Notes: a model not told the origin generated them from the letters alone. DNA of 64,000 nt from Flavobacteriales bacterium (GCA_028281825.1 JANQJC010000006.1:10076-74075), one strand, 5' to 3'. Counted from the stretch's first letter, positions 3,551 through 22,164 are shown. Made by a program: numbers and translations.

Positions 3551-5023
3551 TTATTGAGTTGGGTTAGGCTTTAAAGAATAAACCCGGATACTTCCTTTGT
3601 CAAAAAGCTTTTCATCAAAGTACTGTCGAATAGCTGGATTTTGGTCTGTTTTCCTATCATCACAATAAATGTATTGAGCTCCCTTTTGTATCATTTCTTC
3701 CAATGCATCACCAGTTAAGTAATTATCGTATCCCCATCCTTTTTTGTCCACATAGTAGAAGTAGATTACTTTGGTATGGTCGTTACCTGCCACACACAAG
3801 GCATCTTTTGGAACCAAGTCACGCAATTCATTTTTGTATACCAGAAAGTCTTTATTAAAGCCAGGGCTTTCCATATTCCACCTATCCTTCATTCGCAAAT
3901 AGGCTGTTAGTGGCAGGGTCAGCAACAATATGTACACCACATAAGTGAGATAAGGCTTGTCGCTACCCATCAGCTGATATGCGCCATAGGCCACTAATAT
4001 AAATAGCACAGGCATAAATGGAAACAAATAATAATCATGCACAGTTGATATCACGTTTATTTCAAAAAAGAAATAAGCAATGAGCGCAAACCCGGTGAGT
4101 GCAAAAGCCTTAAAGATAAGATTTGTACTCACCCTATTTCTCCACAAAAAGTAAAATGCCGCGATGAAAAATGGCACTGCAGCATAGTTAAGCAATAATT
4201 CTGGCAGGGTGGAAATGAGGTTATGTTGTATGTAGTAAAAAATGGTTGTTATATCAAGTTGATTACCTAACACTCCTGTCACAACACCTCCCTCTGTTCC
4301 CCACCCTGGTATCACCCACAAATACCAGGATAACGGCATAATCAATACCAGTGCAAAGAGAATAATAATCATCACCAATTGCTTCTGATTATAACTTTTT
4401 ATGTTGAACAAGAAATAGAAAAACGGCACTGCGAAAAAAATGACAAATGGAAGCTTGGTTAGAGTACCTAGGCTAAGTAGGAGGGCTGAAACCAAAAGGG
4501 TTACAGGCTTATTATTGGCAAGATACGCAATGAAAGTTGCAAGCCCCCAAATACCAAAGCATAAAGCTAAATTATCAGGCATTGGGTTAACTGTATAGTA
4601 GTAAAAAATAGGTGAAAAGTTGAAAGCCCATGCCCCGCAGACGCCAACAACTGGATTATCAAAAAGCCAATGAAGCAGAAAATACATACCGAAAACCGAT
4701 AGCAAGCCTATGAGAAAACTCAAAATTCTGGTGATTATTAGATGCTTACCAAAAAGCTTGTATACACCCGCAAATGACCATTGCATTATAGGAAACTCAA
4801 GCCTCACTATACCATCATCATCGCCCCTTGTGTTGAGCCTGGGGTTTAGTATATTAAAGTCTTCTTCGTAAAAATTATTGATGGTAGTTTGCGTTTGCAC
4901 CTGCCGCCATACATGTATGCTGACTAGCTCCTTGGGGAAAACATCCCAATGCATGATAAGGCTGATAATAGGGATAGATGCCAATACCATCCATCTTACT
5001 CTTTTTTGCTTCAGTAGTTCCAA
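3551..5023 (-). CDS. Polytopic membrane protein, glycosyltransferase family 39 (ArnT/PMT-like) candidate
   Basis: 490-aa ORF. About 11 hydrophobic helices followed by a ~120-aa soluble C-terminal domain. Convergent with the DUF2723-like gene. Confidence 0.4.
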   Translation of the reverse strand: MELLKQKRVRWMVLASIPIISLIMHWDVFPKELVSIHVWRQVQTQTTINNFYEEDFNILNPRLNTRGDDDGIVRLEFPIMQWSFAGVYKLFGKHLIITRILSFLIGLLSVFGMYFLLHWLFDNPVVGVCGAWAFNFSPIFYYYTVNPMPDNLALCFGIWGLATFIAYLANNKPVTLLVSALLLSLGTLTKLPFVIFFAVPFFYFLFNIKSYNQKQLVMIIILFALVLIMPLSWYLWVIPGWGTEGGVVTGVLGNQLDITTIFYYIQHNLISTLPELLLNYAAVPFFIAAFYFLWRNRVSTNLIFKAFALTGFALIAYFFFEINVISTVHDYYLFPFMPVLFILVAYGAYQLMGSDKPYLTYVVYILLLTLPLTAYLRMKDRWNMESPGFNKDFLVYKNELRDLVPKDALCVAGNDHTKVIYFYYVDKKGWGYDNYLTGDALEEMIQKGAQYIYCDDRKTDQNPAIRQYFDEKLFDKGSIRVYSLKPNPTQ

Positions 5024-5033
5024 TGTACAAGCC

Positions 5034-6488
5034 TTATTCCGCTAGTTCAAGCAATTGATACAAGATACTTTCATCACTTGGCCTTTTGGCGTTGGGCTCA
5101 ACTATAGCCCCATTTTTGTCCATTATCATATAGCGTGGGATGCTATTGATGCCAAAGTATTTACAGACCTCAGAGTTCCAGTTGCCAGGGGAGATCAAAT
5201 TCACGCCCTGCAAGTCGTATTGCTCAACCGCCTTTTTCCATGCATCTTCAGTAGCATCTATGGAAATATACAAGAATTCAATTTTCTTGCGTTGCTTTTT
5301 AGATAAGCTCTCATGCATTTTTTTAGAGTACGGAAATTGCTGCCTACATGGCCCACACCAGCTTGCCCAAAAATCGATGTAAACCACTTTACCTCTAAAA
5401 TCATCCAGACTTACTTCTTTGCCATTAAGGTTCTTAAATGTTATCGGGTATTCTGTGGTTTTACCTTTCTTGTCTTCTTTGGTCACTGCTGCTTTGGGTT
5501 TTACCTTTTCTGCACAGTTCTCTTTTATTGCAGACGCATATTTACCATTAGTATCAAAGGATACAATATTGGCTAACATTTCCTCATAAACATCCTCAGT
5601 TATACCTTCGCAGTTGTCGTACAAGTAGCGCGATAAAAAGCATAGGATTTGCTCATCACTCAAATTCCTGCGGGCAAAACCATATTTCGCCCTCATTGAC
5701 TCATTGTAATCTGTAAACTTTTGAAAATCCCTCTCTTTTGAAGTGAAGTAGACAACGTAATACTCTAAAAAGCTTTGATACTCTTTACATGAAAGTGCTG
5801 CATCATTATAAATCACGGTGTCCTTTATCTCGCTAATCATTACAGGCGGTAATGCACCAACCGTCATCAACTTAGTTTGATTAGAACGAATAATTGGGAA
5901 AGACAACAACAAGTCAAGGTAATTATAACGAATACGGTTTTGAATATATGTTTTGAAGGTCAAAGACAACAAATCATGGTTTTCATGCTTTTTCAAGAAA
6001 TCCAGTTCCGCAAGTCTGTTGTTAAAGATTTCTATCTCAAAAGCATCCACACTGGTTGAAGCCAATATTTTGTCCTCCCAAATTGGTTTATCAAAATGAT
6101 TCTCAAATTTTTCGTGAAACTCTTGCAAAAACACGCTTTCCGATACATTTCTACCCATCAAAACAATTTTGGGTGGAAATGCAAAGGCATCAACATAAAC
6201 CTGTGGTTCTGAACCTGAGTACATGAAAAGCTCCGCGCCAGCCTCCTTATATATCAAGGTGCCCGTAACTGGTTTCATTAATGGAAATTCAAACTCAAAG
6301 AACCCTCCCGATACGGGAATACGATAAGTATCTGACAGTGCCTCCAGATAGTAATTGTTTATCACCAACAGCACTTCATCCTGGTCTTGCCCATTAACTT
6401 CTCCACTTATTTTTATCTTCTGCGAAAACGCTTGAACACTTGCAATTAGAGCAAGGAAAAACAAGTAGTATCTAATTGATTTTATCAT
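5034..6488 (-). CDS. TlpA-like thioredoxin-family thiol-disulfide oxidoreductase with N-terminal extra domain, secreted
   Basis: Signal peptide MIKSIRYYLFFLALIASVQAFSQ. C-terminal FWASWCGPCRQQFP redoxin active site. Confidence 0.75.
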   Translation of the reverse strand: MIKSIRYYLFFLALIASVQAFSQKIKISGEVNGQDQDEVLLVINNYYLEALSDTYRIPVSGGFFEFEFPLMKPVTGTLIYKEAGAELFMYSGSEPQVYVDAFAFPPKIVLMGRNVSESVFLQEFHEKFENHFDKPIWEDKILASTSVDAFEIEIFNNRLAELDFLKKHENHDLLSLTFKTYIQNRIRYNYLDLLLSFPIIRSNQTKLMTVGALPPVMISEIKDTVIYNDAALSCKEYQSFLEYYVVYFTSKERDFQKFTDYNESMRAKYGFARRNLSDEQILCFLSRYLYDNCEGITEDVYEEMLANIVSFDTNGKYASAIKENCAEKVKPKAAVTKEDKKGKTTEYPITFKNLNGKEVSLDDFRGKVVYIDFWASWCGPCRQQFPYSKKMHESLSKKQRKKIEFLYISIDATEDAWKKAVEQYDLQGVNLISPGNWNSEVCKYFGINSIPRYMIMDKNGAIVEPNAKRPSDESILYQLLELAE

Positions 6489-8621: not shown

Positions 8622-9035
8622 TCACAAATCCTTAATCTCTGGAAATAAGTTCTTTGCATACCTATGTATTTCCATAATTTGATGCTTCGATATAGAATCA
8701 ATTGATTCAAGAGACTTCTCTATATAAAAGAAACAACTTTCACTGTTCACCATTCTTAAGAGTAACATACTTGCCCAATTCGGGCTCTTTTGAAAAAGGC
8801 TATACAAACGGTTTTTCATTAAAGAATTAACATATTTCTCATCTTCAATTGCTTCAACGGTATGTATAATCGAGAACATTACTTCTTCATATTCATAATT
8901 GTCTTCTAGGAACTCAATCAAACTAATAATTTGCTCTTCATCACCACCCTCATATATTGAAGCAAGAGCCAACTCTGCTAAGTCTAGATCCATCTTATCT
9001 AATCCATTCCTTAATTGCTTAAAATAATCCCCCAC
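8622..9035 (-). CDS. Hypothetical acidic helical protein (orphan)
   Basis: 137-aa ORF with no recognisable catalytic motif. Sits alone in an AT-rich stretch with ~300 bp of non-coding flank on each side. Resembles small immunity-type proteins only in general composition. Confidence 0.35.
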   Translation of the reverse strand: MGDYFKQLRNGLDKMDLDLAELALASIYEGGDEEQIISLIEFLEDNYEYEEVMFSIIHTVEAIEDEKYVNSLMKNRLYSLFQKSPNWASMLLLRMVNSESCFFYIEKSLESIDSISKHQIMEIHRYAKNLFPEIKDL

Positions 9036-9334
9036 ACTAATTGATTTTACGAGTTAGCTTCTAATTCTACTTTGATTGGCTAATTTACTTTTTCGATGAA
9101 TACAATACCTCTCATTGAGAGGAAGCGCTGAGGTTAAGGTGTAAGCGCAGGAATACTAACATCGTAGCTCCTAACTTTTGTTACTTATCTTCTCTCTTCT
9201 TTCACCTGACTCCCGATTTCTATTTTTTTTACTTTTTGTCTATTTTCGAGTAAATTTCTTTAAACAAGTTGCCCCAATCTGTTGTTAAAGCAGTAAAAAA
9301 TAATTAAAACCATAGTTATACGTTAATTTTTATC

Positions 9335-10246
9335 ATGAATGGTGATTATTCTATTAAGGACTTGGAAAAGCTTTCGGGCATCAAAGCTCACACTATTAGG
9401 ATATGGGAAAAGCGTTACAATATTATCCACCCTCAGCGCACTGACAGCAACTATCGTTACTATTGCGATACTGAGCTTAAGAAGCTCCTGAACATTGCGG
9501 TGCTCAATAATAATGGCTATAAAATCTCTCACATAGCCAAATTATCAGAGGACGATATCAATCAGGCATTACTAAGGGTAGCTGAAGCAGATACCAACTA
9601 CCAAACACAAATAGATAGTTTGGTGATAGCCATGGTAGACCTGGATAGAAATAAATTTGAGAGAATATTTAACCATAATATACTCAAGTTTGGCTTTGAA
9701 GATACCTTCCTGCATATTATATACCCACTATTGATGAAAGTGGGTGTGATGTGGCAAACCAGCAAGATTGACCCCTGTCAGGAACATTTCTTATCCAATC
9801 TCATTCGCCAAAAATTAATAGTGGCTATTGATGGGCAATACAAACCCCACCCCAAATACGATAAAGCTTTTTTGTTTTTCTTGCCTGAAGGTGAATTGCA
9901 TGAGCTTGGCCTATTATTCCACACCTACATGGTGAAGAAATATGGTTTTAGGGCTATATACCTGGGGCAAAGCGTTCCGTATGAAGACTTAATCGCCGTC
10001 TACGAAAAGCATAAACCTGACTACATGTTAACTGCTTTTGTTACTCCATGCGGCTCAGAAAAAATAACCAATTATCTTACCGGTTTATCCAAAGAATGCC
10101 CTGAAACAACTATCTATATCACTGGCTCCCAGGCATGCCAATGCACCTCGAATTTGCCCGAAAATGTCAAAACCCTGAGAACTGCAGAAGATTTCAAAGC
10201 CGAAATGAAGAATCTGGGAGCTCAATTCGAGCTTGAAAAGGTGTAA
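9335..10246 (+). CDS. MerR-family transcriptional regulator with C-terminal cobalamin-binding domain (LitR/CarH-like light-responsive regulator)
   Basis: N-terminal MerR HTH (IKDLEKLSGIKAHTIRIWEKRYNII...YRYY). C-terminal region has the ExHxxG B12-binding motif (PEGELHELGLL) followed by a Rossmann-like segment. Confidence 0.6.
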   Translation: MNGDYSIKDLEKLSGIKAHTIRIWEKRYNIIHPQRTDSNYRYYCDTELKKLLNIAVLNNNGYKISHIAKLSEDDINQALLRVAEADTNYQTQIDSLVIAMVDLDRNKFERIFNHNILKFGFEDTFLHIIYPLLMKVGVMWQTSKIDPCQEHFLSNLIRQKLIVAIDGQYKPHPKYDKAFLFFLPEGELHELGLLFHTYMVKKYGFRAIYLGQSVPYEDLIAVYEKHKPDYMLTAFVTPCGSEKITNYLTGLSKECPETTIYITGSQACQCTSNLPENVKTLRTAEDFKAEMKNLGAQFELEKV

Positions 10247-10264
10247 TAACCAGTTTTTTCTTTT

Positions 10265-10414
10265 GTTTAAACTTTACGTATTTGTTAATAAACGTTAATG
10301 TTTATTTACAATGTGCTGTATATCAGTGATTTATGTATTATAGTCATATTTTGTTTAAACTTTTTCTTGGTAGTTTAAACAATTTGTTTAATTTTGACGT
10401 TAAGAAGTTTAAAC
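10265..10414 (+). promoter_or_regulatory. Array of four perfect GTTTAAAC palindromes in the regulator-to-sigma-factor intergenic region (candidate operator/promoter elements)
   Basis: GTTTAAAC at 10265-10272, 10353-10360, 10373-10380 and 10407-10414. A GTTTAAT variant at 10386-10392. A CTTTAAAC variant upstream of the regulator at 9258-9265. Confidence 0.45.
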
Positions 10415-10429
10415 AAAAAATTTACAGCC

Positions 10430-10942
10430 ATGACAACACTAGAATTCAACTACCATGTCATCAGCTTAAGAGAAAAACTAAAGTTCTTTGCACTTAAGTT
10501 AACCCAAAACGGAGATGACGCCGACGATTTACTTCAAGATACCATGCTTAAGGCAATGGTTAACCGCGATAAGTTTCAGGAGAAAACCAACCTGGCAGCG
10601 TGGTTGTATACTATAATGAAGAACACTTTTATCAATAACTATAGAAAAGCCGCAAAAGCCAATACTATTATTGATAATACCAAAGAGTTGTACTACCTCA
10701 ACATCCCTCAGTCTTCTGATAGTATATCACCAGAGTCAAGGCTCTCTGAGAAACAGATAAAAGAGCATATCAACTCATTAGATGACACCTACAAGGTTCC
10801 ATTCCAAATGCATTACGATGGCTACAAGTACAAAGAGATTGCTGACGAATTGGATATTCCAATAGGCACTGTTAAGAGCCGCATCTTTTTAGCTCGCAAA
10901 GAATTGATGGAGCTACTTAAAGATTACAAAAAGAGTGCTTAA
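10430..10942 (+). CDS. RNA polymerase ECF-type sigma-70 factor
   Basis: Region 2 (DDLLQDTMLKAMVNRDKFQEKTNLAAWLYTIMKNTFINNYRK). Region 4 HTH (IADELDIPIGTVKSRIFLARKEL). The ATG at 10430 is preferred over 10394. Confidence 0.8.
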   Translation: MTTLEFNYHVISLREKLKFFALKLTQNGDDADDLLQDTMLKAMVNRDKFQEKTNLAAWLYTIMKNTFINNYRKAAKANTIIDNTKELYYLNIPQSSDSISPESRLSEKQIKEHINSLDDTYKVPFQMHYDGYKYKEIADELDIPIGTVKSRIFLARKELMELLKDYKKSA

Positions 10943-10945
10943 AGA

Positions 10946-12262
10946 ATGCAGCCGCTCAATATCTTTTGGTTCAGGCGAGACCTGAGGCTCAATGATAATT
11001 GCGGCCTTTACAAGGCACTTAAAGAAAGTGAACCGGTATTAGCTGTTTTCATTTTCGATACCAATATTTTATCCCAGCTTGAAGATAAGAACGACGGGAG
11101 GGTGGATTTTATCCACTCTTCTGTTTCTCAGCTCAAAACCGAGCTGGAAAAACGCGGCTCATCACTTTTGATTGAGGTAGGCAAACCCCAAGAAGTTTAT
11201 CAGAAACTATTTGATGAATACAACATCAAAGCCATCTACACCAATCATGATTATGAACCATATGCACAAAAAAGGGATGATGAAATAAAAGCACTTGCCC
11301 AAAACAAAGGTGCTCAATTCTTCACCTTCAAAGATCAGGTTATATTTGAAAAAGATGAAGTGTTAAAGCCCAATGGTGAGCCTTATACCGTTTACACACC
11401 TTATATGAAGATGTGGAAACAGAAGTTAACCGAGAAAGGAACTAAGTCTTTTGACACTACTCCACTTCTAAACAATTTCTTTAATGCCCAACCCTTTGCA
11501 CTTCCCACCATTGAAGATATTGGTTTTGAGAAAACAGGTGTGACTATCCCACCCACCAACGCTTCAATTGACTTATTAGAAAACTATAAACAAACGCGCG
11601 ACTACCCCGCAACCAAAGGCACTAGTAAACTAAGCGTTCACCTAAGGTTTGGTACCATTAGTATTCGTCAGTTGGTAAAAAAAGCACTCGAAGCCAGTGA
11701 TACTTTCCTCAATGAATTGATTTGGCGCGAGTTTTACATGATGATACTCTGGCACTTTCCGCATGTGATTGACGGTGCCTTTAAACCTCAATACAATCAC
11801 ATTCAATGGAGAAACAACGAACAAGAATTCAAAGCTTGGTGTGAAGGCAAAACGGGCATTCCCATCGTTGATGCTGGTATGCGAGAATTGAACAAAACAG
11901 GTTATATGCACAATCGCGTAAGGATGATTGTAGCCAGCTTCCTGACCAAAAACTTACTCATTGACTGGCGTTGGGGTGAAGCATACTTCGCAAAAAAGTT
12001 ACTGGATTTTGAGTTGGCATCAAATAATGGCGGTTGGCAATGGGCCGCAGGAACTGGTTGCGACGCCGCACCTTACTTCAGGGTCTTCAACCCTACCCTG
12101 CAAACACAAAAATTTGACCCAGAAGGAAAATACATCAAAAAGTGGGTGCCAGAGTTGAATAGCCTGGAATACCCGCAACCTATAGTTGATTTATCATCGT
12201 CCAGAAAAAGGGCTTTGCAAGTGTATAAGGAGGCATTATCCGATGAAGGTGTTCACGCTTAG
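10946..12262 (+). CDS. Photolyase/cryptochrome family FAD-binding protein (deoxyribodipyrimidine photolyase or CRY-DASH)
   Basis: N-terminal photolyase alpha/beta domain (IFWFRRDLRLNDNCGLYKAL). C-terminal FAD-binding motifs (WREFY, GYMHNRVRMIVASFLTKNL, ASNNGGWQWAAG). Starts 3 nt after the sigma factor stop. Confidence 0.85.
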   Translation: MQPLNIFWFRRDLRLNDNCGLYKALKESEPVLAVFIFDTNILSQLEDKNDGRVDFIHSSVSQLKTELEKRGSSLLIEVGKPQEVYQKLFDEYNIKAIYTNHDYEPYAQKRDDEIKALAQNKGAQFFTFKDQVIFEKDEVLKPNGEPYTVYTPYMKMWKQKLTEKGTKSFDTTPLLNNFFNAQPFALPTIEDIGFEKTGVTIPPTNASIDLLENYKQTRDYPATKGTSKLSVHLRFGTISIRQLVKKALEASDTFLNELIWREFYMMILWHFPHVIDGAFKPQYNHIQWRNNEQEFKAWCEGKTGIPIVDAGMRELNKTGYMHNRVRMIVASFLTKNLLIDWRWGEAYFAKKLLDFELASNNGGWQWAAGTGCDAAPYFRVFNPTLQTQKFDPEGKYIKKWVPELNSLEYPQPIVDLSSSRKRALQVYKEALSDEGVHA

Positions 12263-12710
12263 CAGAGAGCTTTTTATTCCCACAAGTATTGAAAAAGCCT
12301 GGGAATTCTTCTCTTCTCCTGATAACCTCGGGAAAATTACCCCCTCTTATATGGGCTTTAAAATTCTTTCACCCACCAATAGAGAGAACATCCGTACAGG
12401 CATGGAAATAGTTTATAAGGTAAAGCCTGTATTGAACATTCCACTCACCTGGGTAACGGTAATTGACCGAGTAGACGCACCCTACTCATTTGTTGATACT
12501 CAAAAAAAGGGGCCTTACAAAATTTGGTGGCACTCCCATCAATTTGTACCTACGGAGGGTGGCGTATTAATGAAGGATACTGTAAATTATGTCTTACCTT
12601 TAGGCTGGCTTGGCATAATCATGCATTCTCTTTTTGTGAAAAAGCAATTGAAAAACATATTTGATTATCGAAAAAAAGCCGTTCATCGCATCTTTAACAG
12701 TAATGTATGA
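12243..12710 (+). CDS. SRPBCC (START/Bet v1-like, polyketide cyclase-like) family protein
   Basis: MKVFTLSRELFIPTSIEKAWEFFSSPDNL... is a typical SRPBCC N-terminus. Overlaps the photolyase 3' end by 20 nt. Confidence 0.6.
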   Translation: MKVFTLSRELFIPTSIEKAWEFFSSPDNLGKITPSYMGFKILSPTNRENIRTGMEIVYKVKPVLNIPLTWVTVIDRVDAPYSFVDTQKKGPYKIWWHSHQFVPTEGGVLMKDTVNYVLPLGWLGIIMHSLFVKKQLKNIFDYRKKAVHRIFNSNV

Positions 12711-13630
12711 AACAAGTACTTCTACTCTTTTTATGTATGCTCACTCTCGGGCTTTCGGCACAGCAAATACCCAACAATTCATTCGAGTCATGGACACCTG
12801 AACTAGGTGGCACCTATGAAGAACCAGGTGGCAATTGGTGGGCTACCCTTAACTTTCTCAGGGGCTTTGGCTCTAGTGCACCCATTTCTGTGAAGAAAAC
12901 CACCGATGCACAATTGGGCCAATTCGCAGCAGAAATAAGCACGGGCACTTTCGGCTCATTCACCATTCCCGGACTGCTCGTTTCAGGAACGGTAGGTCAG
13001 ATTGATTTGGGCAACCCAACAGACGTGATTGAAAGGGGACAACCATTTACCGCAACACCCGATAAAATCTCAGGTTATTATAAATACACCCCCGTCAATG
13101 GTGACTCCGCCGTAGTGAATGCCATGCTCACCAAGTTCAATACAGGTACCAACAAAAGGGATACCGTCGCCTTTGCAGAGCAATTGTTTTACTCCAATGT
13201 CACTACCTATACCCCTTTTGAGGCCACCTTCAATTACGACATGCCCAATGTAACCCCTGATACCATCATTATTGTGCTGGTATCCAGTGCTGGTGCGCAG
13301 TCTTTGGCTGGCCAGCCCGGCAGCACCTTTTTTGTCGACAACCTATCCTTAAGCTACATTCAAGGCATAGAAATGGATGTCTTCAATGCCATCACAGTTA
13401 ATGCATATCCCAACCCAGCTATAGACAGGATCGTTTTCTCCACCGCAAAACCATCAGGTTCCAGAAGCATTACTTTATATGACCAATTGGGTAGAAATTG
13501 CTTATCCTTGCCCTTTCAATCAACCAATATTGAAATAGATATAAGTTCACTAGCCAAAGGAAAATACCTTTTCGCAGTGCAAGAAAGAGACAAAACCATT
13601 TCAACCGGAACTATCATTAAATCCCAATAA
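12707..13630 (+). CDS. Secreted T9SS cargo protein (type A C-terminal sorting domain)
   Basis: Signal peptide. C-terminus ...AYPNPAIDRIVFS...KGKYLFAVQERDKTISTGTIIKSQ (Por_Secre_tail-like). Start ATGA overlaps the SRPBCC stop. Confidence 0.65.
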   Translation: MKQVLLLFLCMLTLGLSAQQIPNNSFESWTPELGGTYEEPGGNWWATLNFLRGFGSSAPISVKKTTDAQLGQFAAEISTGTFGSFTIPGLLVSGTVGQIDLGNPTDVIERGQPFTATPDKISGYYKYTPVNGDSAVVNAMLTKFNTGTNKRDTVAFAEQLFYSNVTTYTPFEATFNYDMPNVTPDTIIIVLVSSAGAQSLAGQPGSTFFVDNLSLSYIQGIEMDVFNAITVNAYPNPAIDRIVFSTAKPSGSRSITLYDQLGRNCLSLPFQSTNIEIDISSLAKGKYLFAVQERDKTISTGTIIKSQ

Positions 13631-14358
13631 TGGCCAAAAATATCAGCATCTTTTTCCTGGCTTTATTGTTTGGCTTCGCTACCTATGGGCAAAACATTGA
13701 TTTGGGCATCATGGGTGGCATCAATTATGGTGGCCCTATCGGCAAGGTAGACAGCGCTGAAGGTAGCCCACTTGCTAAATTTGAGGCCGGGCTTTTGTCT
13801 TCCATTAAGCTATCTGACCGATGGTATTTCAAACCTTCACTATACTTTACCCAAAAAGGCGCTGAGTATAGCCAATCTTACAGACGAGACACCATAGTTG
13901 AGATTGAGATAGCTGGAATAAAAGGTGAAATACCTACCTTTTACAGGGCAAGTGTAAGCGGTGACGTGTTAGGTCAGTATCTGGAGTTTCCATTGGCAAT
14001 ATCCTATCGCAACAAAAAAGGCTTTTTCGTTGATTTAGGGCCGTATCTATCATTCCTACTCTCAAGCAAAGACCAAGGTCACCTCAGGCTTGATATTGGC
14101 GAAGACGGCTTTATCACTGACGAAAGTAATTTTGTATACACCAAAGCCCTCAACACTTTTGAATACGGTGCTGTGTTTGCTGGTGGCTACCAGTTCAATT
14201 TTGGTTTGGGATTATACATCAAAGGCACACGTAGCTTCTCTAAGCTATACAGAAGCTCCCACTTCGAGAAACTTCAACAAACTGAAGTGAAGCTATACAA
14301 TACTATCGTATCATTTGGTTTACAATATTCTCTCGTAAAGTTTAAGACAGAAAGCTAG
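13630..14358 (+). CDS. Outer-membrane beta-barrel protein (porin-family-like)
   Basis: Signal peptide MAKNISIFFLALLFGFATYGQ. Alternating amphipathic beta-strand pattern. Start overlaps the preceding stop (TAATG). Confidence 0.55.
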   Translation: MAKNISIFFLALLFGFATYGQNIDLGIMGGINYGGPIGKVDSAEGSPLAKFEAGLLSSIKLSDRWYFKPSLYFTQKGAEYSQSYRRDTIVEIEIAGIKGEIPTFYRASVSGDVLGQYLEFPLAISYRNKKGFFVDLGPYLSFLLSSKDQGHLRLDIGEDGFITDESNFVYTKALNTFEYGAVFAGGYQFNFGLGLYIKGTRSFSKLYRSSHFEKLQQTEVKLYNTIVSFGLQYSLVKFKTES

Positions 14359-14359
14359 C

Positions 14360-17300
14360 TTATTGCTCCTTTTTAAGCGCCTCAATAGCTTTTTCACATA
14401 TGCCCCTTAGTTTTAAGGCCATTTCGCCTAGCTCATCTTCATTTGCACTTTTAGCATGTTCCATAGTCTCGGCAATATTTGAAGCCTCTGCCATCCCCAT
14501 CAACCCCAATGACGACTTCAGCTTATGAGCCTGCCTTCTGGCAAGATTTAATTCCCCATTCTCTATTAGGCCATCCAATTGTTTCAACTCATCTGGTGTC
14601 CCCGATACAAAAGACTTTATCATTTCCAACACAAACTCTCTATCCCCCATGGATACGTCATACAAGTTGGCCAAATCATACAAAGGTGGGGCACTTGCAG
14701 CTACCTGTGGCTTGGTCGCATGTTTCAGTATTTTATCAACCAATTCCTCTTTCCTGAATGGCTTGCTCACATAATCATTCATCCCAATTGAAAAGCAACG
14801 TTTCTTTTCCTTTTCCATCGCGTCAGCTGTCATAGCTATCATTGGTGTATTCTTCACCCTTTCGTCCTCCGAGGCCCTTATTCTTTTTCCTGTTTCCATA
14901 CCATCCATCTCAGGCATATGAATATCCATCAACACCAAATCATACGGCTCCTTTTCCAACATTTCCAAGCCAATCTGCCCATTATCGGCAATGTGCAGCG
15001 TTGCACCATATATCCTCGAAACAACTTCTGTTACCAACCTCTGATTCAACTCATTATCCTCGCACAACAGTATTTTGTAACCTGTTAAATCCTTTCTTTT
15101 CTTCCGGGTTTCAGTAACCTTTTCTTTCCTGGCTTTCTTCTGGTCAGCCACCACAAATGGAATAGTAAAGCTAAAAGTAGTGCCTGCACCTGCTTTACTT
15201 TTAACCCTCATTTCTCCACCCTGTAATTCTACCAAGCGCTTGGCAATGGTAAGCCCCAAACCCGTACCACCATATTTTCTGGTAGTATCTGCAGTAGCTT
15301 GAGTAAAACTTTCAAATACCAGATTCAACTTATTCTTTGGTATGCCTATCCCTGTATCCTTTACAGAAAACTGTAACGTAGCTTTTCCTCGCTCTACCTT
15401 TATTGCCTTCACACCTATATTCACCGACCCCTCATGCGTAAACTTCAATGCATTGCCCACCAAATTATTGAGTATTTGGTTAATCCTTACTGAATCACCA
15501 ACAATAAATTCAGGCACCGACGACCCAATAGTATAGTTCAAATCAAGTCGCTTCTCCCTTGCCTTCTCAGTAAAAAGGTCTACAAGTCTCGTAACCAGCT
15601 CGTGCACACTAAAGTCCTTCTTCACAATTTCTAGCTTACCAGCTTCCATCTTTGAGAAACTCAAAATATCATCCAATATCACTTTCAGGTTCTGCCCCGC
15701 GGTGTGTATAGACTCAACATATTTAAGTTGGTCAGTATTAAGCTCCGTTTCCAATAATATATCTATAAAGCCAACAACAGAATTCATAGGAGTTCGTATC
15801 TCATGGCTCATATTCGCCAAAAACTCCTCCTTTATCCGCGCCGACCTCTCTGCTTTTTCCTTGGCTTTTATCAATTGAAACTCCGCTTCTTTCTTATCTG
15901 TGATGTCTATGGCTATTTCAATAAATTTTTGTTTGCCCTCGCTCATCACAGGAGTGTTAGTGATGGTAAACCATATGCTATTTCCATCTTTATGATAGTT
16001 CAATACTTCAACTCTAAATGGTTCACGTTTCTTTTGCTTATCATGCATGTATTGCAAAGTAGATGGCTCTGTGTTTGGCCCTATTAATACCTTTGAAGGC
16101 AGCTTACCCTTTATCTCTTCAAAAGTATAACCGGTAATTCTGGTAAACGCCTCATTCACCCACTCCACTCTGCTCTCTTTATCAGATATTACCACTACAC
16201 TATCTGTCTTATCTGCTACAATCGAGAGTTTGTTCAACTCCTCTTCGGTCTTCTTGCGTTCGGTAATGTCAACGCCCATTCCCAATATTTGCGCTGGTGT
16301 ACCGTCGGGCTTTCTCTTGAAAATTGTCTCCTTATTGTAATACCACAACAGCGCACCACCCTTCGACTTTAGTCTCACCTCAAACTCATAAAACTCCCCG
16401 TCCTTCATGTCATCGAACTCTTCATAGTGGCCCATAACAATGGGCAAGTCTTCAGGGTGCACAATATTGGGTATCATTTTATCTCCCATCTGCAGCATTT
16501 CTGCTTCCGTATAACCCAACTGACCAAGAATTTTCCTATTAGTATATACCTGTTGCCTGGTATCCAAATCAATGATGTAAATGGAGTTGGGTGATTGCGT
16601 GGCAATTGCCTCAGCAAACTGCTTACTCTGCTCAATTTCCTGTGCTGCATTTCTCCTTTCTATGGTACTGCCCACCCAGCGAGACAATAACCTTACAAAC
16701 TCCTGCTGATGCTCTGTAAAGTCCTCATGGCCTTCCTCAAAGGCGATAAAATTGATAGTGCCATGTATCCTATTGCTCACCCAAATAGGCACTCCTATAT
16801 ACGACTTGGCGCCTACGTCATGAAACCCGGCATTCTTAGCTATCCTATGCTTTGAAACTTCATTAATCACCACCAGGTCTTTCTTCTTCACCACCGCGCT
16901 ACTCATGGTATTCTTCAACTCATACTCCCCTCCTTGCACAAACAAGTCACTTGCTTTTGCACTTTGATACAAGTGCTGTATGGTATAGCGCTTGTCTTGT
17001 ATGTGACTAATAAGTCCAACTGGTGTGTCTAAGTATTCGCATGCCGCCCTCAATACTTCATCCAATTGCTCATCAAATGTCACATCACTTTGGGAGGCAA
17101 TCTCGTTCAATGTCTTCAGGCCTTCCTGAAACTCCGCCAAATACTCCTCTGCCTTTTTTCTATCCGTTATATCAACTGCCACACCCAGTATTTGCGCGGG
17201 AGTTCCATCCTCATTCCTCCTAAAAACATTTTCTTTAAAGAACATCCAACGCCACCCACCTTCATTATCCCTCATTCTCAACTCAAACTCAAGCACCTTA

Positions 17301-18727
17301 TTCTCGTCAGCCCCAATAAACTCATCATAATGCTTGTAGGCATACTCCCAATCATCAGGATGAGCCACTTTCTTGATAACATCCACACCCGCATTTTCTA
17401 AAAACTCTGCTGAGTGGCCAAGGTAACCGTTGGCATACACATATTTCTTGGTAGCAAAATCAATGATGTAAATGGAGTTGGGTGATTGTTTGGCAATGGC
17501 TTCAGCAAACTGCCTGCTCTCCTCCAATTCAAGCACTGCCTGTTTTCTCTCTCTCAGGTCTAGGCCAATACCTATGTATCCGTCAATATTACCTTCTGAA
17601 TCGAAAATGGGAGAAGCCGATAAAAGCATAGGTATGCGCTCCCCTTTCTTGCTGATGTAGGTCATCTCATACTCATCTGGTTGCCGGGTGAGCTTTATCT
17701 TACCAGCAAATGTATCAAGGCCTGGCTTGAATTTAGTGCCTAGTTCCTCGTTAAGCTTGTTCGTCCTTTCTACTATCTCCTCAAAATCGTGAAACGGAGG
17801 ATTAGATAACCCTATCATCTCCTCGGCTTTGTAGCCCAACAGTTTTTCTGCGGTTTTATTAAACGCCTGGATAACCCCATTTTTGTCTAATGAGATAACC
17901 GTGAGGTTGGTACTGTCCAAAATTGCCTTACGCAATTGGTCAGCTTGTTTTTCCCTCTCTTCCAGCTTTTTTCTCTCATCTATATTCTCAATTACACCAA
18001 TTATTGAGGTAATGTCACCTTCCTCATTCAACACTTTAGTCGCTGTCATAGAAGCCCAAATTAAGCCTCCGTCTTTCTTGATATAACGCTTTTCCAGGGT
18101 ATATGACTTTATCTCCCCACCCACAAAATCCTTTTGCTTTTTTAAATTTTCAGGCAAATCTTCAGGATAGGTAATCTCAGTAAACGGCCTACCCTTTATA
18201 TCCTTCATAGCATAACCTGTCATCTTTAAAAAAGCCTGGTTACAATCAATCAATACACCATTGGCATCGGCTATGCTCACACCCAAAGTTGAGGCGTCAA
18301 AAATTGCCTTAAACCTCCTTTGAATTGTTTCATGTATCTCATTCTGCTTCTTCTCCTCAGTCACATTTCTAAAGATACCCCTGGTTGAAACTGGTTTGCC
18401 ATTCTCTAGTCTAACCGTGATGCTTCCGCTTACCCTTATCACCTTACCTTTCTTCGATACAAAAGCAGTCTTTACATTCTTAACTTCTTTCCCTGAAAAT
18501 ATTTGTTGAAAAATATCTTGGCAATGTGGCAGCTCTGAAGGTGCTACTATATCAGGAAAAGTAAGTTCTAGGGCCTGTTTTTTGGTATAGCCCAACTCTT
18601 TACACCAAGTGTTATTCACATAAACAAAAGCACCTGATGATGACACCACCTGAATAAGGTCGCTGGCATGCTCTACCAAGTCATAATAAAAGTCGTCCGT
18701 AGTGTCTTGTGGGTGCTTTTTAGCCAA
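14360..18727 (-). CDS. Hybrid sensor histidine kinase/response regulator with multiple PAS/PAC modules, GAF-like region, HisKA, HATPase, REC and C-terminal HPt
   Basis: H-box MSHEIRTPMNSVVGF. G2 box GTGLGLTIAKRLVELQGGEMRVKSKAGAGTTFSF. REC (ILLCEDNELNQ...LVLMDIHMPEMDG). HPt (RQAHKLKSSLGLMGM). Repeated PAS-like units. Confidence 0.85.
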   Translation of the reverse strand: MAKKHPQDTTDDFYYDLVEHASDLIQVVSSSGAFVYVNNTWCKELGYTKKQALELTFPDIVAPSELPHCQDIFQQIFSGKEVKNVKTAFVSKKGKVIRVSGSITVRLENGKPVSTRGIFRNVTEEKKQNEIHETIQRRFKAIFDASTLGVSIADANGVLIDCNQAFLKMTGYAMKDIKGRPFTEITYPEDLPENLKKQKDFVGGEIKSYTLEKRYIKKDGGLIWASMTATKVLNEEGDITSIIGVIENIDERKKLEEREKQADQLRKAILDSTNLTVISLDKNGVIQAFNKTAEKLLGYKAEEMIGLSNPPFHDFEEIVERTNKLNEELGTKFKPGLDTFAGKIKLTRQPDEYEMTYISKKGERIPMLLSASPIFDSEGNIDGYIGIGLDLRERKQAVLELEESRQFAEAIAKQSPNSIYIIDFATKKYVYANGYLGHSAEFLENAGVDVIKKVAHPDDWEYAYKHYDEFIGADENKVLEFELRMRDNEGGWRWMFFKENVFRRNEDGTPAQILGVAVDITDRKKAEEYLAEFQEGLKTLNEIASQSDVTFDEQLDEVLRAACEYLDTPVGLISHIQDKRYTIQHLYQSAKASDLFVQGGEYELKNTMSSAVVKKKDLVVINEVSKHRIAKNAGFHDVGAKSYIGVPIWVSNRIHGTINFIAFEEGHEDFTEHQQEFVRLLSRWVGSTIERRNAAQEIEQSKQFAEAIATQSPNSIYIIDLDTRQQVYTNRKILGQLGYTEAEMLQMGDKMIPNIVHPEDLPIVMGHYEEFDDMKDGEFYEFEVRLKSKGGALLWYYNKETIFKRKPDGTPAQILGMGVDITERKKTEEELNKLSIVADKTDSVVVISDKESRVEWVNEAFTRITGYTFEEIKGKLPSKVLIGPNTEPSTLQYMHDKQKKREPFRVEVLNYHKDGNSIWFTITNTPVMSEGKQKFIEIAIDITDKKEAEFQLIKAKEKAERSARIKEEFLANMSHEIRTPMNSVVGFIDILLETELNTDQLKYVESIHTAGQNLKVILDDILSFSKMEAGKLEIVKKDFSVHELVTRLVDLFTEKAREKRLDLNYTIGSSVPEFIVGDSVRINQILNNLVGNALKFTHEGSVNIGVKAIKVERGKATLQFSVKDTGIGIPKNKLNLVFESFTQATADTTRKYGGTGLGLTIAKRLVELQGGEMRVKSKAGAGTTFSFTIPFVVADQKKARKEKVTETRKKRKDLTGYKILLCEDNELNQRLVTEVVSRIYGATLHIADNGQIGLEMLEKEPYDLVLMDIHMPEMDGMETGKRIRASEDERVKNTPMIAMTADAMEKEKKRCFSIGMNDYVSKPFRKEELVDKILKHATKPQVAASAPPLYDLANLYDVSMGDREFVLEMIKSFVSGTPDELKQLDGLIENGELNLARRQAHKLKSSLGLMGMAEASNIAETMEHAKSANEDELGEMALKLRGICEKAIEALKKEQ

Positions 18728-22087: not shown

Positions 22088-22164
22088 TGGTGGGCCCACC
22101 TGGACTTGAACCAGGGACCACTTGATTATGAGTCAAGTGCTCTAACCAACTGAGCTATAGGCCC
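22088..22164 (-). tRNA. tRNA with CAT anticodon (tRNA-Met elongator or tRNA-Ile2/lysidine), CCA encoded
   Basis: Reverse complement GGGCCTATAGCTCAGTTGGTTAGAGCACTTGACTCATAATCAAGTGGTCCCTGGTTCAAGTCCAGGTGGGCCCACCA folds as a cloverleaf. Anticodon loop is CTCATAA. Confidence 0.85.

What the first reader, a model, noticed from the sequence alone, without database searches (positions are those of the whole stretch)
9335..14358. Candidate light-responsive six-gene module: LitR/CarH-like B12-MerR regulator, ECF sigma, photolyase, SRPBCC, T9SS cargo protein and OM beta-barrel
Seen in the sequence: a MerR HTH protein with an ExHxxG cobalamin-binding motif sits directly upstream of an ECF sigma factor. 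Four genes then follow with essentially no intergenic space (gap 3 nt, overlap 20 nt, ATGA overlap, TAATG overlap). They are a photolyase/cryptochrome, an SRPBCC protein, a T9SS-sorted secreted protein and an outer-membrane beta-barrel. Established knowledge: LitR/CarH B12-dependent MerR regulators confer light induction, and in Streptomyces coelicolor the litR-litS (ECF sigma) pair drives light-induced genes. Photolyase and SRPBCC genes are classical light-regulon members. Inference: this is a LitR-sigma cascade in a Bacteroidota organism. What appears new is that its output includes a secreted T9SS cargo protein and an outer-membrane barrel co-translated with the photolyase. That suggests a light-dependent cell-surface function, not only DNA repair. 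No anti-sigma gene is present.
Basis: partly seen in the sequence, partly recalled or inferred. Interest (0 to 1): 0.62.

Follow-up and report, generated by a model that had tools for sequence, protein, structure and literature searches.

The report
B12 light switch controlling sigma-photolyase operon
A vitamin-B12-type light-sensor repressor sits in front of an alternative sigma factor whose operon, in this bacterial lineage only, also carries a DNA-repair photolyase, a lipid-binding-type protein, a secreted surface protein and an outer-membrane barrel. The sensor-sigma pair is common across Bacteroidota, where it normally sits in carotenoid pigment gene clusters.

Summary
In detail: six same-strand genes with the stated domains, motifs and junctions. 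The regulator has every sequence hallmark of a class I CarH/LitR B12 photoreceptor. Its pairing with this ECF sigma is not chance: the sigma orthologue lies directly downstream in 54 of 70 Bacteroidota loci. I found a conserved operator, TGTTTAA-N16-TTAAACA, usually two units, in 54 of 57 regulator-sigma intergenic regions. It overlaps the promoter region just upstream of the sigma gene; in the window that is a clear housekeeping-type promoter (two perfect units, 10352-10415). A second, strand-specific promoter-like motif, AACAA-N15/16-GTTA, lies before the regulator gene (window 9263-9287) and before carotenoid genes outside the sigma operon. It is a candidate target of the sigma. Most likely this is a LitR-LitS-like light cascade. 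Its usual cargo is carotenoid genes. Here, and in five close relatives, the cargo is photolyase-SRPBCC-PCMD/T9SS-OMP. The PCMD-OMP pair is an obligate cassette. Elsewhere it sits with lipase, lipocalin, SnoaL, SDR, CrtI-like oxidase or peroxiredoxin genes, and there it shows no light-regulator signal. The "light-dependent surface function" is therefore plausible but confined to one lineage and untested. Verdict: a new variant of a known kind, of moderate interest.

The parts
9237..9266 (.). Operator-like unit upstream of the regulator gene (TGTCTATTTTCGAGTAAATTTCTTTAAACA, 12 of 14 half-site positions). Candidate autoregulatory site.
   Evidence: Equivalent 13/14 units lie upstream of the regulator gene in L001-L003, and in L018, L033, L045, L058, L060, L061, L074 and L075. 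The segment is conserved in alignment A3.
9263..9287 (+). Candidate ECF-type promoter AACAA-N16-GTTA, 48 nt before the regulator gene's ATG.
   Evidence: Forward hits within 150 nt upstream of the regulator gene: 14 of 83 (shuffle mean 0.47, no reverse hits). Also Caroten_synth 9/26, crtZ 7/21, ispH 3/15, sigma 0/58. Conserved in L001-L003. Assignment to this sigma is inference.
9335..10246 (+). CarH/LitR class-I-like regulator: MerR HTH, four-helix bundle (Wx9EH) and a Rossmann-type B12 domain (ExHxxG).
   Evidence: Best solved relatives are Thermus CarH/LitR 3WHP and 5C8D, E about 2e-20 over residues 2-224. The GxxW, EH, GxxH and GxxxP signatures of light-responsive cobalamin domains (PMC11796333) are all present.
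10264..10294 (.). Distal operator-like unit (12 of 14). It overlaps a 15+15 nt palindrome at 10282-10311.
   Evidence: Its left half-site TTGTTTAA is conserved in L001-L003. Its function is unresolved.
10352..10381 (.). Operator unit 1: TGTTTAA-N16-TTAAACA, 14 of 14.
   Evidence: The architecture is conserved phylum-wide.
10367..10396 (+). Bacteroidota housekeeping-type promoter: -33 TTG (10367-69), N19, -7 TAATTTTG (10389-96).
   Evidence: Read. Both elements are conserved in the alignment of L001-L003. The strict TTG-N18-20-TAnnTTTG pattern matches 29 of 57 regulator-sigma intergenic regions, including the window, L001 and L002 but not L003. The consensus itself comes from established knowledge of Bacteroides and Flavobacterium promoters.
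10385..10415 (.). Operator unit 2: TGTTTAA-N17-TTAAACA, 14 of 14. It overlaps the -7 box and the predicted transcription start.
   Evidence: The last unit typically ends 8-21 nt before the sigma ATG across loci.
10430..10942 (+). ECF (group IV) sigma factor, 170 aa, with no adjacent anti-sigma gene.
   Evidence: Orthologues (45-63% identical) lie directly downstream of the regulator gene in 54 of 70 loci. The ATG start is conserved and the 170-aa protein is on record.
10946..12262 (+). Class I CPD photolyase.
   Evidence: Best solved relatives are 1OWL/1TEZ (E about 8e-95), 2E0I and 1DNP.
12243..12710 (+). SRPBCC/START-like small protein with no signal peptide. It overlaps the photolyase gene by 20 nt.
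   Evidence: The window protein has only a weak Pfam hit, but its L109 orthologue passes the cut-off (25.4 against 23.4). It matches the N-terminal SRPBCC domain of 3OH8 at E = 0.0015. Orthologues lie next to the regulator gene in L004 and L072, near it in L028, and before PCMD-OMP in L088 and L109.
12707..13630 (+). Secreted PCMD (CBM-like beta-sandwich) protein with a type A T9SS C-terminal sorting domain.
   Evidence: AlphaFold2 model pLDDT 82. Best fold matches are the PCMD-family structures 3HBZ, 4HET and 3S30, then CBM16 and CBM4.
13630..14358 (+). Small outer-membrane beta-barrel (OMP_b-brl_2), the obligate partner of the PCMD gene.

Best explanation
This is a CarH/LitR-type, adenosylcobalamin-dependent light switch wired to an ECF sigma factor. 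It is the Bacteroidota counterpart of the Streptomyces LitR-LitS cascade.

Proposed mechanism, all inferred: in the dark the B12-bound regulator, probably an oligomer, occupies two adjacent inverted-repeat units (TGTTTAA-N16/17-TTAAACA, 10352-10415). These cover the -33/-7 housekeeping-type promoter and the predicted start site of the sigma operon, and so block it. Light photolyses the cofactor and the repressor leaves. One transcript then carries the sigma factor, photolyase, SRPBCC protein, PCMD/T9SS protein and OMP.

The sigma factor has no adjacent anti-sigma, so it is probably controlled by its own synthesis. It would then activate AACAA-N15/16-GTTA promoters elsewhere, including one in front of the regulator gene (negative feedback). 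In other genomes these promoters also lie before crtZ, Caroten_synth and ispH.

In most Bacteroidota the sigma operon carries crtI-crtB. In this lineage that cargo is replaced by a photoprotection set. The photolyase repairs UV lesions. SRPBCC-PCMD-OMP is a recurrent trio or pair that elsewhere sits with lipid, isoprenoid and peroxide-stress genes. It most likely handles a hydrophobic molecule at the outer membrane or cell surface.

Shown here: domain content, motifs, synteny statistics, and cis-element conservation and position. Inferred: B12 binding, light response, repression, who binds which element, and the envelope function.
For: Regulator identity:
- MerR and B12-binding_2 hits.
- Wx9EH and the ExH core invariant in 14 homologues.
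- Best solved relatives are Thermus CarH/LitR, E about 2e-20, with the motifs aligned.
- The four cobalamin-photoreceptor signatures of PMC11796333 are present.

Pairing with the sigma:
- The sigma orthologue is directly downstream on the same strand in 54 of 70 loci from Cytophagales, Flavobacteriales, Bacteroidales/Lentimicrobium and Chitinophagales.

Operator:
- TGTTTAA/TTAAACA occurs 161 times against 7.3 expected, in 51 of 53 distant intergenic regions.
- The inverted pair with 23-nt start spacing occurs 35 times, usually as two units.
- Units at 12 or more of 14 are in 54 of 57 intergenic regions.
- In 1.19 Mb of loci, units at 13 or more of 14 fall 74 times before the sigma gene, 13 times before the regulator gene, and once before crtI in the sigma-less locus L071.
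- In the 64-kb window, all four hits at 12 or more of 14 lie in the module's two intergenic regions.
- The units overlap TTG-N19-TAATTTTG, whose elements are conserved in the aligned close relatives.

Operon:
- Junctions of +3, -20, -4 and -1 nt. Junctions stay within a few nucleotides in L001-L003, at 59-95% protein identity.

Sigma targets:
- The AACAA-N15/16-GTTA motif is strand-specific and enriched.

Precedent:
- Streptomyces LitR-AdoB12 represses the litR and litS promoters, and sigma-LitS drives the crt promoters (PMC11519972).
- Pseudomonas LitR regulons contain phrB, an SDR, a FAD-oxidoreductase and folE (PMC9758184).

Envelope and lipid link of PCMD-OMP.
Against: - There are no expression, binding or photochemistry data.
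- The Rossmann B12-binding Pfam hit is below threshold (18.8 against 32.1 bits). The NCBIfam CarH equivalog score is far below its cut-off (95.5 against 400). This is a distant family member.
- The operator is built of inverted repeats. From memory, the Thermus and Bacillus CarH operators are 11-bp direct repeats, so the binding mode would differ.
- The operator could in principle belong to another factor.
- The ECF-like promoter motif is only weakly associated with presence of an adjacent sigma gene (21 of 53 against 3 of 16). It is absent upstream of photolyase genes that stand apart from the sigma gene.
- Internal promoters inside the operon cannot be excluded.
- PCMD-OMP cassettes in other lineages show no regulator gene, operator or ECF-like motif. 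One sits next to ribosomal genes.
Confidence: 0.68

Rival explanations
1. The regulatory core is real, but PCMD/T9SS and OMP (perhaps SRPBCC too) are passengers. On this view a mobile two-gene envelope cassette landed behind the photolyase. It is expressed mainly from its own internal promoter and has no functional link to light.
For: The cassette occurs with the regulator and sigma genes only in one narrow lineage. Elsewhere it stands in unrelated places, for example next to ribosomal protein genes in L090. In those places it has no operator or ECF-like motif.
Against: Start-stop overlaps of 4 and 1 nt leave no intergenic promoter space. Junctions stay within 6 nt in relatives with only 59-62% PCMD and OMP identity (L003 and L088). 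SRPBCC orthologues are independently linked both to the regulator gene (L004, L072, L028) and to PCMD-OMP (L088, L109), which bridges the two halves.
Confidence: 0.2
2. The regulator acts as a light-dependent activator, or as a dual repressor-activator in MerR style, on the sigma promoter rather than as a simple repressor. This has been proposed for Streptomyces LitR on the litS promoter.
For: PMC11519972 describes illuminated LitR as activating the litS promoter. In the window, one palindromic junction of the operator (TTAAACAATTTGTTTAA, 10375-10391) lies between -33 and -7, which is the classical MerR activator position.
Against: The 19-nt spacer is the normal optimum for Bacteroidota housekeeping-type promoters, not an over-long MerR-type spacer. 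In most other loci the promoter-proximal unit covers the -7 box and the start site, a position typical of repression. Characterised CarH proteins are repressors (PMC4557120 abstract; PMC11519972).
Confidence: 0.12
3. The protein senses cobalamin availability or redox state rather than light. Alternatively it has lost photoreceptor function, and the module responds to another stress through an unlinked anti-sigma factor.
For: The Rossmann-domain HMM score is below threshold and the CarH equivalog score is low. Many ECF sigmas have unlinked or unknown regulators.
Against: All photoreceptor signature residues are retained (PMC11796333). The family's neighbours are overwhelmingly carotenoid and photolyase genes, the classic light outputs.
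Confidence: 0.07

Closest known systems
Streptomyces coelicolor LitR-LitS (AdoB12 photoreceptor plus ECF sigma controlling crt genes)
   Same: A B12-type MerR regulator encoded next to an ECF sigma with no adjacent anti-sigma. A predicted regulator operator lies on the sigma promoter and on the regulator's own promoter region. Carotenoid genes are the usual output of the family (PMC11519972).
   Different: - The genes are in tandem here, not divergent.
- The sigma operon itself carries structural genes (crtI-crtB in most Bacteroidota; photolyase-SRPBCC-PCMD-OMP here).
- The predicted sigma promoter AACAA-N15/16-GTTA is unlike GCATCCR-N15-CVGAAD.
- It occurs in a different phylum with a different housekeeping-type promoter.
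- Sequence relatedness of the two sigmas was not tested.
Thermus thermophilus, Bacillus megaterium and Myxococcus xanthus CarH (class I LitR)
   Same: Same domain architecture and key residues. These are the best solved-structure matches. The operator overlaps the target promoter.
   Different: About 2e-20 similarity only, and far below the NCBIfam equivalog cut-off. The operator here is two inverted-repeat units of 30-31 bp rather than the tandem 11-bp direct repeats I recall for Thermus and Bacillus (from memory, not tested). The direct target is a sigma-factor operon.
Pseudomonas class II LitR light regulons (phrB, SDR, FAD-oxidoreductase, ufaM, folE, cryB)
   Same: A photolyase together with lipid- and pterin-related genes under a LitR-family regulator (PMC9758184). 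L004 has NUDIX-PTPS-GTP cyclohydrolase I-photolyase behind the sigma gene. The PCMD-OMP cassette elsewhere sits beside SDR and FAD-oxidase genes.
   Different: Class II LitRs lack the Rossmann B12 domain and work without an ECF sigma. No T9SS cargo or OMP is reported there.
merR-rpoE genes noted inside Cyclobacteriaceae carotenoid clusters (Echinicola)
   Same: The same gene pair, listed with crtI, crtB, crtY, crtZ, crtW and ispH (PMC8683446). It matches the common context found.
   Different: That paper only lists the genes. In the searchable literature I found no description of the pair as a B12 photoreceptor-ECF cascade, nor of its operator or promoters.

Membership tests
CarH/LitR class I (AdoB12 photoreceptor-repressor) | N-terminal MerR-type helix-turn-helix | tested here: met
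   MerR_1 60.5 bits and MerR 43 bits, both above cut-off.
CarH/LitR class I (AdoB12 photoreceptor-repressor) | Four-helix-bundle cap with Wx9EH (GxxW and EH signatures) | tested here: met
   B12-binding_2 37.2 bits (cut-off 23). G137, W140, E150 and H151 are invariant in A1. They align to Thermus CarH. The signatures are as listed in PMC11796333.
CarH/LitR class I (AdoB12 photoreceptor-repressor) | Rossmann-type B12 domain with lower-axial His in (E/D)xHxxG, plus GxxxP | tested here: inconclusive
   The motifs are present and largely conserved: E187, H189, G211 and P215 are invariant, and G186 is nearly so. But the Pfam B12-binding score is 18.8 bits against a 32.1 cut-off, and the NCBIfam CarH equivalog score is 95.5 against 400.
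CarH/LitR class I (AdoB12 photoreceptor-repressor) | Binds AdoCbl, oligomerises in the dark and dissociates in light | not testable with these tools
   Needs purified protein, spectroscopy and size-exclusion or native mass spectrometry.
CarH/LitR class I (AdoB12 photoreceptor-repressor) | Operator overlapping the promoter of light-induced genes | tested here: met
   In silico only. Conserved units cover the promoter region just upstream of the sigma gene.
CarH/LitR class I (AdoB12 photoreceptor-repressor) | Operator made of tandem 11-bp direct repeats (Thermus/Bacillus type, recalled from memory) | tested here: not met
   Half-sites alternate in orientation, with start spacings of 23 and 21 nt (10 nt between units in the window).
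LitR-LitS-type cascade | ECF sigma encoded next to the photoreceptor gene and under its control | tested here: met
   Adjacency in 54 of 70 loci. Operator in front of the sigma gene in 54 of 57. Control itself is inferred.
LitR-LitS-type cascade | Sigma-dependent promoters on the output genes | tested here: inconclusive
   A strand-specific AACAA-N15/16-GTTA motif lies before the regulator, crtZ, Caroten_synth and ispH genes. Its link to this sigma is only by association. No such motif lies before the photolyase, SRPBCC or PCMD genes.
ECF (group IV) sigma-70 | Only regions 2 and 4, about 170-200 aa | tested here: met
   Sigma70_r2 and Sigma70_r4_2, and TIGR02937 at 89.6 against 42.9. No curated NCBIfam family more specific than TIGR02937 reached its cut-off.
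ECF (group IV) sigma-70 | Co-encoded anti-sigma factor | tested here: not met
   The next gene starts 3 nt after the sigma stop and is a photolyase. In other loci it is crtI. This is typical of transcriptionally controlled ECFs.
Class I CPD photolyase | N-terminal photolyase domain plus FAD_binding_7, closest to class I enzymes | tested here: met
   PDB 1OWL/1TEZ at E about 8e-95 and 1DNP at 1e-86, ahead of DASH and 6-4 types. Activity is not testable here.
T9SS type A cargo | Signal peptide plus C-terminal Por_Secre_tail/TIGR04183 domain | tested here: met
   TIGR04183 at 39.4 against 23. The model shows an N-terminal helix and a separate C-terminal beta-sandwich at 232-305. Secretion itself and the T9SS machinery genes were not examined.
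SRPBCC/START superfamily | Helix-grip fold domain | tested here: inconclusive
   The window protein scores 19.8 against 23.4 bits. The orthologue in L109 scores 25.4 and passes. The 3OH8 N-terminal domain matches at E = 0.0015.
OMP_b-brl_2 small outer-membrane barrels | Signal peptide plus a small antiparallel beta-barrel | tested here: met

The most novel reading that the evidence does not exclude
A phylum-wide, so far uncharacterised Bacteroidota light circuit with three parts. First, a B12 photoreceptor with an unusual double inverted-repeat operator. Second, an anti-sigma-less ECF sigma. Third, AACAA-N15/16-GTTA promoters. In this lineage the circuit has been rewired from pigment synthesis to a light-induced envelope system. 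In that system a cytoplasmic SRPBCC carrier, a T9SS-secreted CBM-like protein and its dedicated OmpW-like barrel would move, anchor or remove a hydrophobic photoprotective or photo-oxidised molecule at the cell surface.
Probability: 0.2. Interest if true: 0.72.

Novelty: new variant of a known kind. Interest (0 to 1): 0.5.

Why it matters
B12-based light sensing has been worked out in Thermus, Myxococcus, Bacillus and Streptomyces. Bacteroidota dominate sunlit marine and freshwater particles, yet I found no regulatory study of it in them. The comparative data give a concrete, testable wiring diagram: operator sequence, promoter, sigma target motif and feedback. They apply to hundreds of genomes. 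The same switch drives pigment genes in most lineages and a DNA-repair plus envelope set in this one. If confirmed, it would supply a compact green/blue-light expression switch native to Bacteroidota. It would also link light to type IX secretion for the first time that I could find. If the PCMD/OMP genes are mere passengers, the locus is simply a good new example of a known regulatory logic.

Tried and rejected
1. I read the GTTTAAAC sites as an ECF -35 box, and looked for AAC...CGT in the distal intergenic region. The spacing is wrong (20-21 nt), the sites occur on both strands, and they form fixed inverted pairs, so they are an operator, not a promoter.

2. Matching the sites to the Thermus-type direct-repeat pattern nAnnTnnACAn, recalled from memory and checked by eye, gave no fit.

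3. The second AACAA-N16-GTTA hit in the window (10378-10402) overlaps the operator, and its GTTA is not conserved in L001-L003, so I treated it as chance. The hit at 35505 lies inside a coding region. The N17 hit at 9157-9182 on the - strand is unconserved.

4. I looked for the operator or the ECF-like motif near PCMD-OMP in other lineages and found none.

5. I looked for crt genes and the SnoaL-SDR-oxidase genes in the 64-kb window and found none.

6. An Rfam scan for a cobalamin riboswitch or other RNA found only one tRNA-Met in the whole window.

7. The generic sigma-70 and terminator scan gave no more hits than shuffles. It is not suited to Bacteroidota promoters.

8. The source organism could not be named. 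The window's proteins are on an unnamed 103-kb NCBI/Logan contig, and the best reference-genome regulator is only 55% identical.

9. The ECF classification paper consulted (PMC7671368) does not mention MerR, photolyase or LitS.

10. Sequence searches of PDB with the OMP and PCMD proteins were uninformative, so I used fold searches instead.

Full report
**Observation**

The six + strand ORFs are present exactly as described. Pfam and NCBIfam give the following:
- Regulator: MerR HTH plus B12-binding_2, with a sub-threshold B12-binding hit.
- Second gene: an ECF sigma with regions 2 and 4 (TIGR02937 89.6 bits).
- Third gene: DNA_photolyase plus FAD_binding_7.
- Fourth gene: a weak SRPBCC hit (19.8 bits against 23.4).
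- Fifth gene: PCMD plus a type A T9SS sorting domain.
- Sixth gene: OMP_b-brl_2.

The junctions read from the sequence are +3, -20, -4 (ATGA) and -1 (TAATG) nt. The operon ends one base before the stop codon of a convergent 1455-aa PAS/histidine-kinase gene. The sigma gene most likely starts at the conserved ATG at 10430 (170 aa), not at the TTG at 10394. That leaves a 183-nt regulatory region after the regulator gene.

**The regulator**

In an alignment of 14 diverse Bacteroidota homologues, W140, E150 and H151 (Wx9EH), E187 and H189 (ExHxxG), and G211 and P215 are invariant. These are the GxxW, EH, GxxH and GxxxP signatures reported for light-responsive cobalamin domains, with W131, E141, H142 and H177 of Thermus CarH as proven key residues (PMC11796333). 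The best solved relatives are Thermus CarH/LitR (3WHP, 5C8D; E about 2e-20 over residues 2-224), with both motifs aligned. By sequence it is therefore a class I LitR/CarH in the sense of PMC9758184. It is a distant one: the NCBIfam CarH equivalog score is 95.5 against a cut-off of 400. The family is very large in Bacteroidota; the homologue search returned its maximum of 8000 scored candidates, all at E <= 1e-10.

**The pairing with the sigma factor is a phylum-wide module**

A scan of one genome per species with the regulator alignment returned 80 loci. They come from Cytophagales, Flavobacteriales, Bacteroidales/Lentimicrobium and Chitinophagales. An orthologue of the window's sigma (45-63% identical) lies directly downstream on the same strand in 54 of the 70 loci that have enough downstream sequence.

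Clustering the neighbouring ORFs and checking them with Pfam shows the usual context: Caroten_synth - CrtZ-type hydroxylase - regulator - sigma - CrtI - CrtB - lycopene cyclase - ketolase - IspH - Idi. About 24 of the loci carry crtI and crtB. A species description of Echinicola lists "rpoE" and "merR" inside its crt cluster without further analysis (PMC8683446). I found no paper that treats the pair as a B12 photoreceptor-ECF cascade.

**Cis-elements: the operator**

All four GTTTAAAC sites of the 64-kb window lie in the 150 bp before the sigma gene. Across 53 distant regulator-sigma intergenic regions, TGTTTAA/TTAAACA occurs 161 times against 7.3 expected, in 51 of the regions. The sites form a fixed unit, TGTTTAA-N16-TTAAACA, with a start spacing of 23 nt seen 35 times. 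There are usually two units 44 nt apart, and 33 nt in the window, which is one helical turn less.

Units matching 12 or more of 14 positions are present in 54 of 57 intergenic regions, and 35 regions have two or more. The last unit typically ends 8-21 nt before the sigma ATG.

In 1.19 Mb of locus sequence, units matching 13 or more of 14 lie:
- 74 times before the sigma gene
- 13 times before the regulator gene
- once before crtI, in the sigma-less locus L071
- twice before ispH

This distribution assigns the element to the regulator, not to the sigma. It also makes the sigma operon the regulator's main target.

In the window the two perfect units (10352-10381 and 10385-10415) straddle a textbook Bacteroidota housekeeping-type promoter: TTG 10367-69, N19, TAATTTTG 10389-96. 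Its elements are conserved in the alignment of the close relatives. A 12/14 unit lies upstream of the regulator gene (9237-9266), and another at 10264-10294.

**Cis-elements: a candidate sigma-dependent promoter**

A second, oriented motif, AACAA-N15/16-GTTA, emerged from the Algoriphagus Caroten_synth upstream regions and the window's regulator upstream region. I then tested it on all loci.

| Upstream of | Forward hits within 150 nt | Shuffle mean | Reverse hits |
|---|---|---|---|
| Regulator gene | 14 of 83 | 0.47 | 0 |
| Caroten_synth | 9 of 26 | 0.09 | 0 |
| crtZ | 7 of 21 | 0.04 | 0 |
| ispH | 3 of 15 | 0.02 | 0 |
| Sigma gene | 0 of 58 | 0.42 | 0 |
| crtI | 0 of 24 | 0.03 | 0 |

Only 6 of 1142 other ORF upstream regions have a forward hit. 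The motif ends 8-55 nt before the start codons. It resembles ECF promoters (AAC in the -35 element, GTT in the -10 element; from general knowledge). It marks the genes of the cluster that lie outside the sigma operon. The window copy is at 9263-9287, 48 nt before the regulator ATG, and is conserved in L001-L003. Its assignment to this sigma is by association only: the motif is seen in 21 of 53 loci with an adjacent sigma gene against 3 of 16 without.

**What is particular to this window**

The complete order sigma-photolyase-SRPBCC-PCMD-OMP, with junctions staying within a few nucleotides, recurs in L001-L003 (regulator 76-85% identical). L088 preserves the last four genes. Two further close PCMD homologues (P0127, P0129) lie on contigs of the same lengths as two close regulator homologues (P0003, P0006), but I did not inspect those contigs.

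Other arrangements occur in other lineages:
- L081: photolyase follows the sigma gene.
- L004: NUDIX-PTPS-GTP cyclohydrolase I-photolyase follows it, recalling folE in the Pseudomonas LitR regulon (PMC9758184).
- L028, L030 and L075: photolyase lies nearby.

The photolyase is a class I CPD type. No carotenoid genes lie in the 64-kb window.

**The PCMD/T9SS and OMP genes**

In every locus with PCMD identity of about 37% or more and enough sequence, the two genes are adjacent, with junctions ranging from overlaps to short gaps. Their commonest context, in at least ten loci, is the following:
- an HSL-type lipase
- PCMD and OMP
- a Blc lipocalin and/or DUF2141
- SnoaL/DUF2358
- an SDR
- a CrtI-family oxidase

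L109 has FakA/DegV - DUF1295 - AhpC/TSA - SRPBCC - PCMD (without the sorting domain) - OMP. In L090 the pair stands alone next to ribosomal genes. None of these loci has a regulator, sigma or photolyase gene, an operator or the ECF-like motif.

SRPBCC orthologues occur next to the regulator gene (L004, L072), near it (L028), and before PCMD-OMP (L088, L109). This bridges the two halves of the operon. The recurring company of lipid-, isoprenoid- and peroxide-related proteins points to handling of a hydrophobic molecule at the envelope. That is inference.

**Mechanism proposed**

Dark: the B12-loaded regulator occupies the double operator over the sigma promoter, and a weaker site before its own gene. 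Light: the repressor is released and one transcript carries the sigma factor, photolyase, SRPBCC protein, PCMD protein and OMP. The sigma factor has no anti-sigma partner nearby. It would then switch on AACAA-N15/16-GTTA promoters, including the regulator gene's own (feedback), and the crt and isoprenoid genes wherever they are in this genome.

This is the logic of Streptomyces LitR-LitS (PMC11519972), with four differences:
- a tandem gene order
- structural genes inside the sigma operon
- a different operator architecture
- a different promoter motif

Shown here: sequences, motifs, statistics and synteny. Inferred: cofactor binding, light response, repression, sigma specificity and the envelope role.

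**Verdict**

The locus is one lineage-specific rewiring of a common, apparently unstudied Bacteroidota module, not a one-off. The link between light and a T9SS cargo rests on operon structure in a handful of related genomes. It is a new variant of a known kind, of moderate interest (0.5). The most useful output is the testable operator and promoter model.

Noticed in passing
window 14360-18727 (- strand): A 1455-aa multi-PAS/GAF hybrid histidine kinase with receiver and HPt-like regions converges on the operon, with one base between the two stop codons. The same neighbour follows the OMP gene in L001 and L003, a cut-off convergent gene in L002, and kinase fragments in L088. I saw no LOV-type NCRFL motif by eye. 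Whether it is functionally linked is unknown.
   Followed up: partly
window 10282-10311 and 10315-10325: A 15+15 nt AT-rich palindrome (TTGTTAATAAACGTT|AATGTTTATTTACAA) is followed by CTG-N5-CAG. The palindrome is conserved in L001 and L002, and the CTG-N5-CAG in all three close relatives, but it is not part of the phylum-wide operator. It could be a distal regulator site, a weak terminator for the regulator gene, or a site for another factor. In several Algoriphagus loci this position holds a GC-rich hairpin followed by a T run.
   Followed up: partly
window 8622-9035 (- strand): A 137-aa acidic ORF lies between the peptidase S15 gene and the regulator gene. It is absent from the corresponding position in L002, so it looks like a lineage-specific insertion. 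An AACAA-N17-GTTA match (9157-9182, - strand) lies 122 nt upstream of it and is probably chance.
   Followed up: no
window 3551-5023 and 5034-6488 (- strand): Two tandem paralogous genes of about 485 aa, with a visible C-terminal thioredoxin-type CGPC motif, lie just upstream of the module; I did not run Pfam on them. The single syntenic gene in L002 has precomputed AhpC-TSA/Redoxin hits. An AhpC/TSA gene also precedes SRPBCC-PCMD-OMP in L109, so a redox-stress theme recurs.
   Followed up: no
L004 3509-7053: Variant sigma operon: regulator - sigma - NUDIX - PTPS - GTP cyclohydrolase I - photolyase, with Epimerase/DUF1731 and SRPBCC genes directly upstream of the regulator gene. The pterin genes could supply the photolyase antenna cofactor. 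SRPBCC and this epimerase type are fused in PDB 3OH8.
   Followed up: partly
L085-L087, L089, L091-L096: A conserved Bacteroidota cluster: HSL-type lipase - PCMD - OMP - (Blc lipocalin, DUF2141) - SnoaL/DUF2358 - SDR - CrtI-family FAD oxidase. Its function is unknown. It looks like a pathway for modifying a lipid or isoprenoid at the envelope.
   Followed up: partly
L071 9877-9906: In this sigma-less locus a perfect operator unit lies directly upstream of crtI. The same regulator family therefore controls pigment genes either directly or through the sigma factor, depending on lineage.
   Followed up: partly
window 22088-22164 (- strand): A single tRNA-Met (CAT) is the only Rfam or ARAGORN hit in the 64-kb window. 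No cobalamin riboswitch is present.
   Followed up: yes
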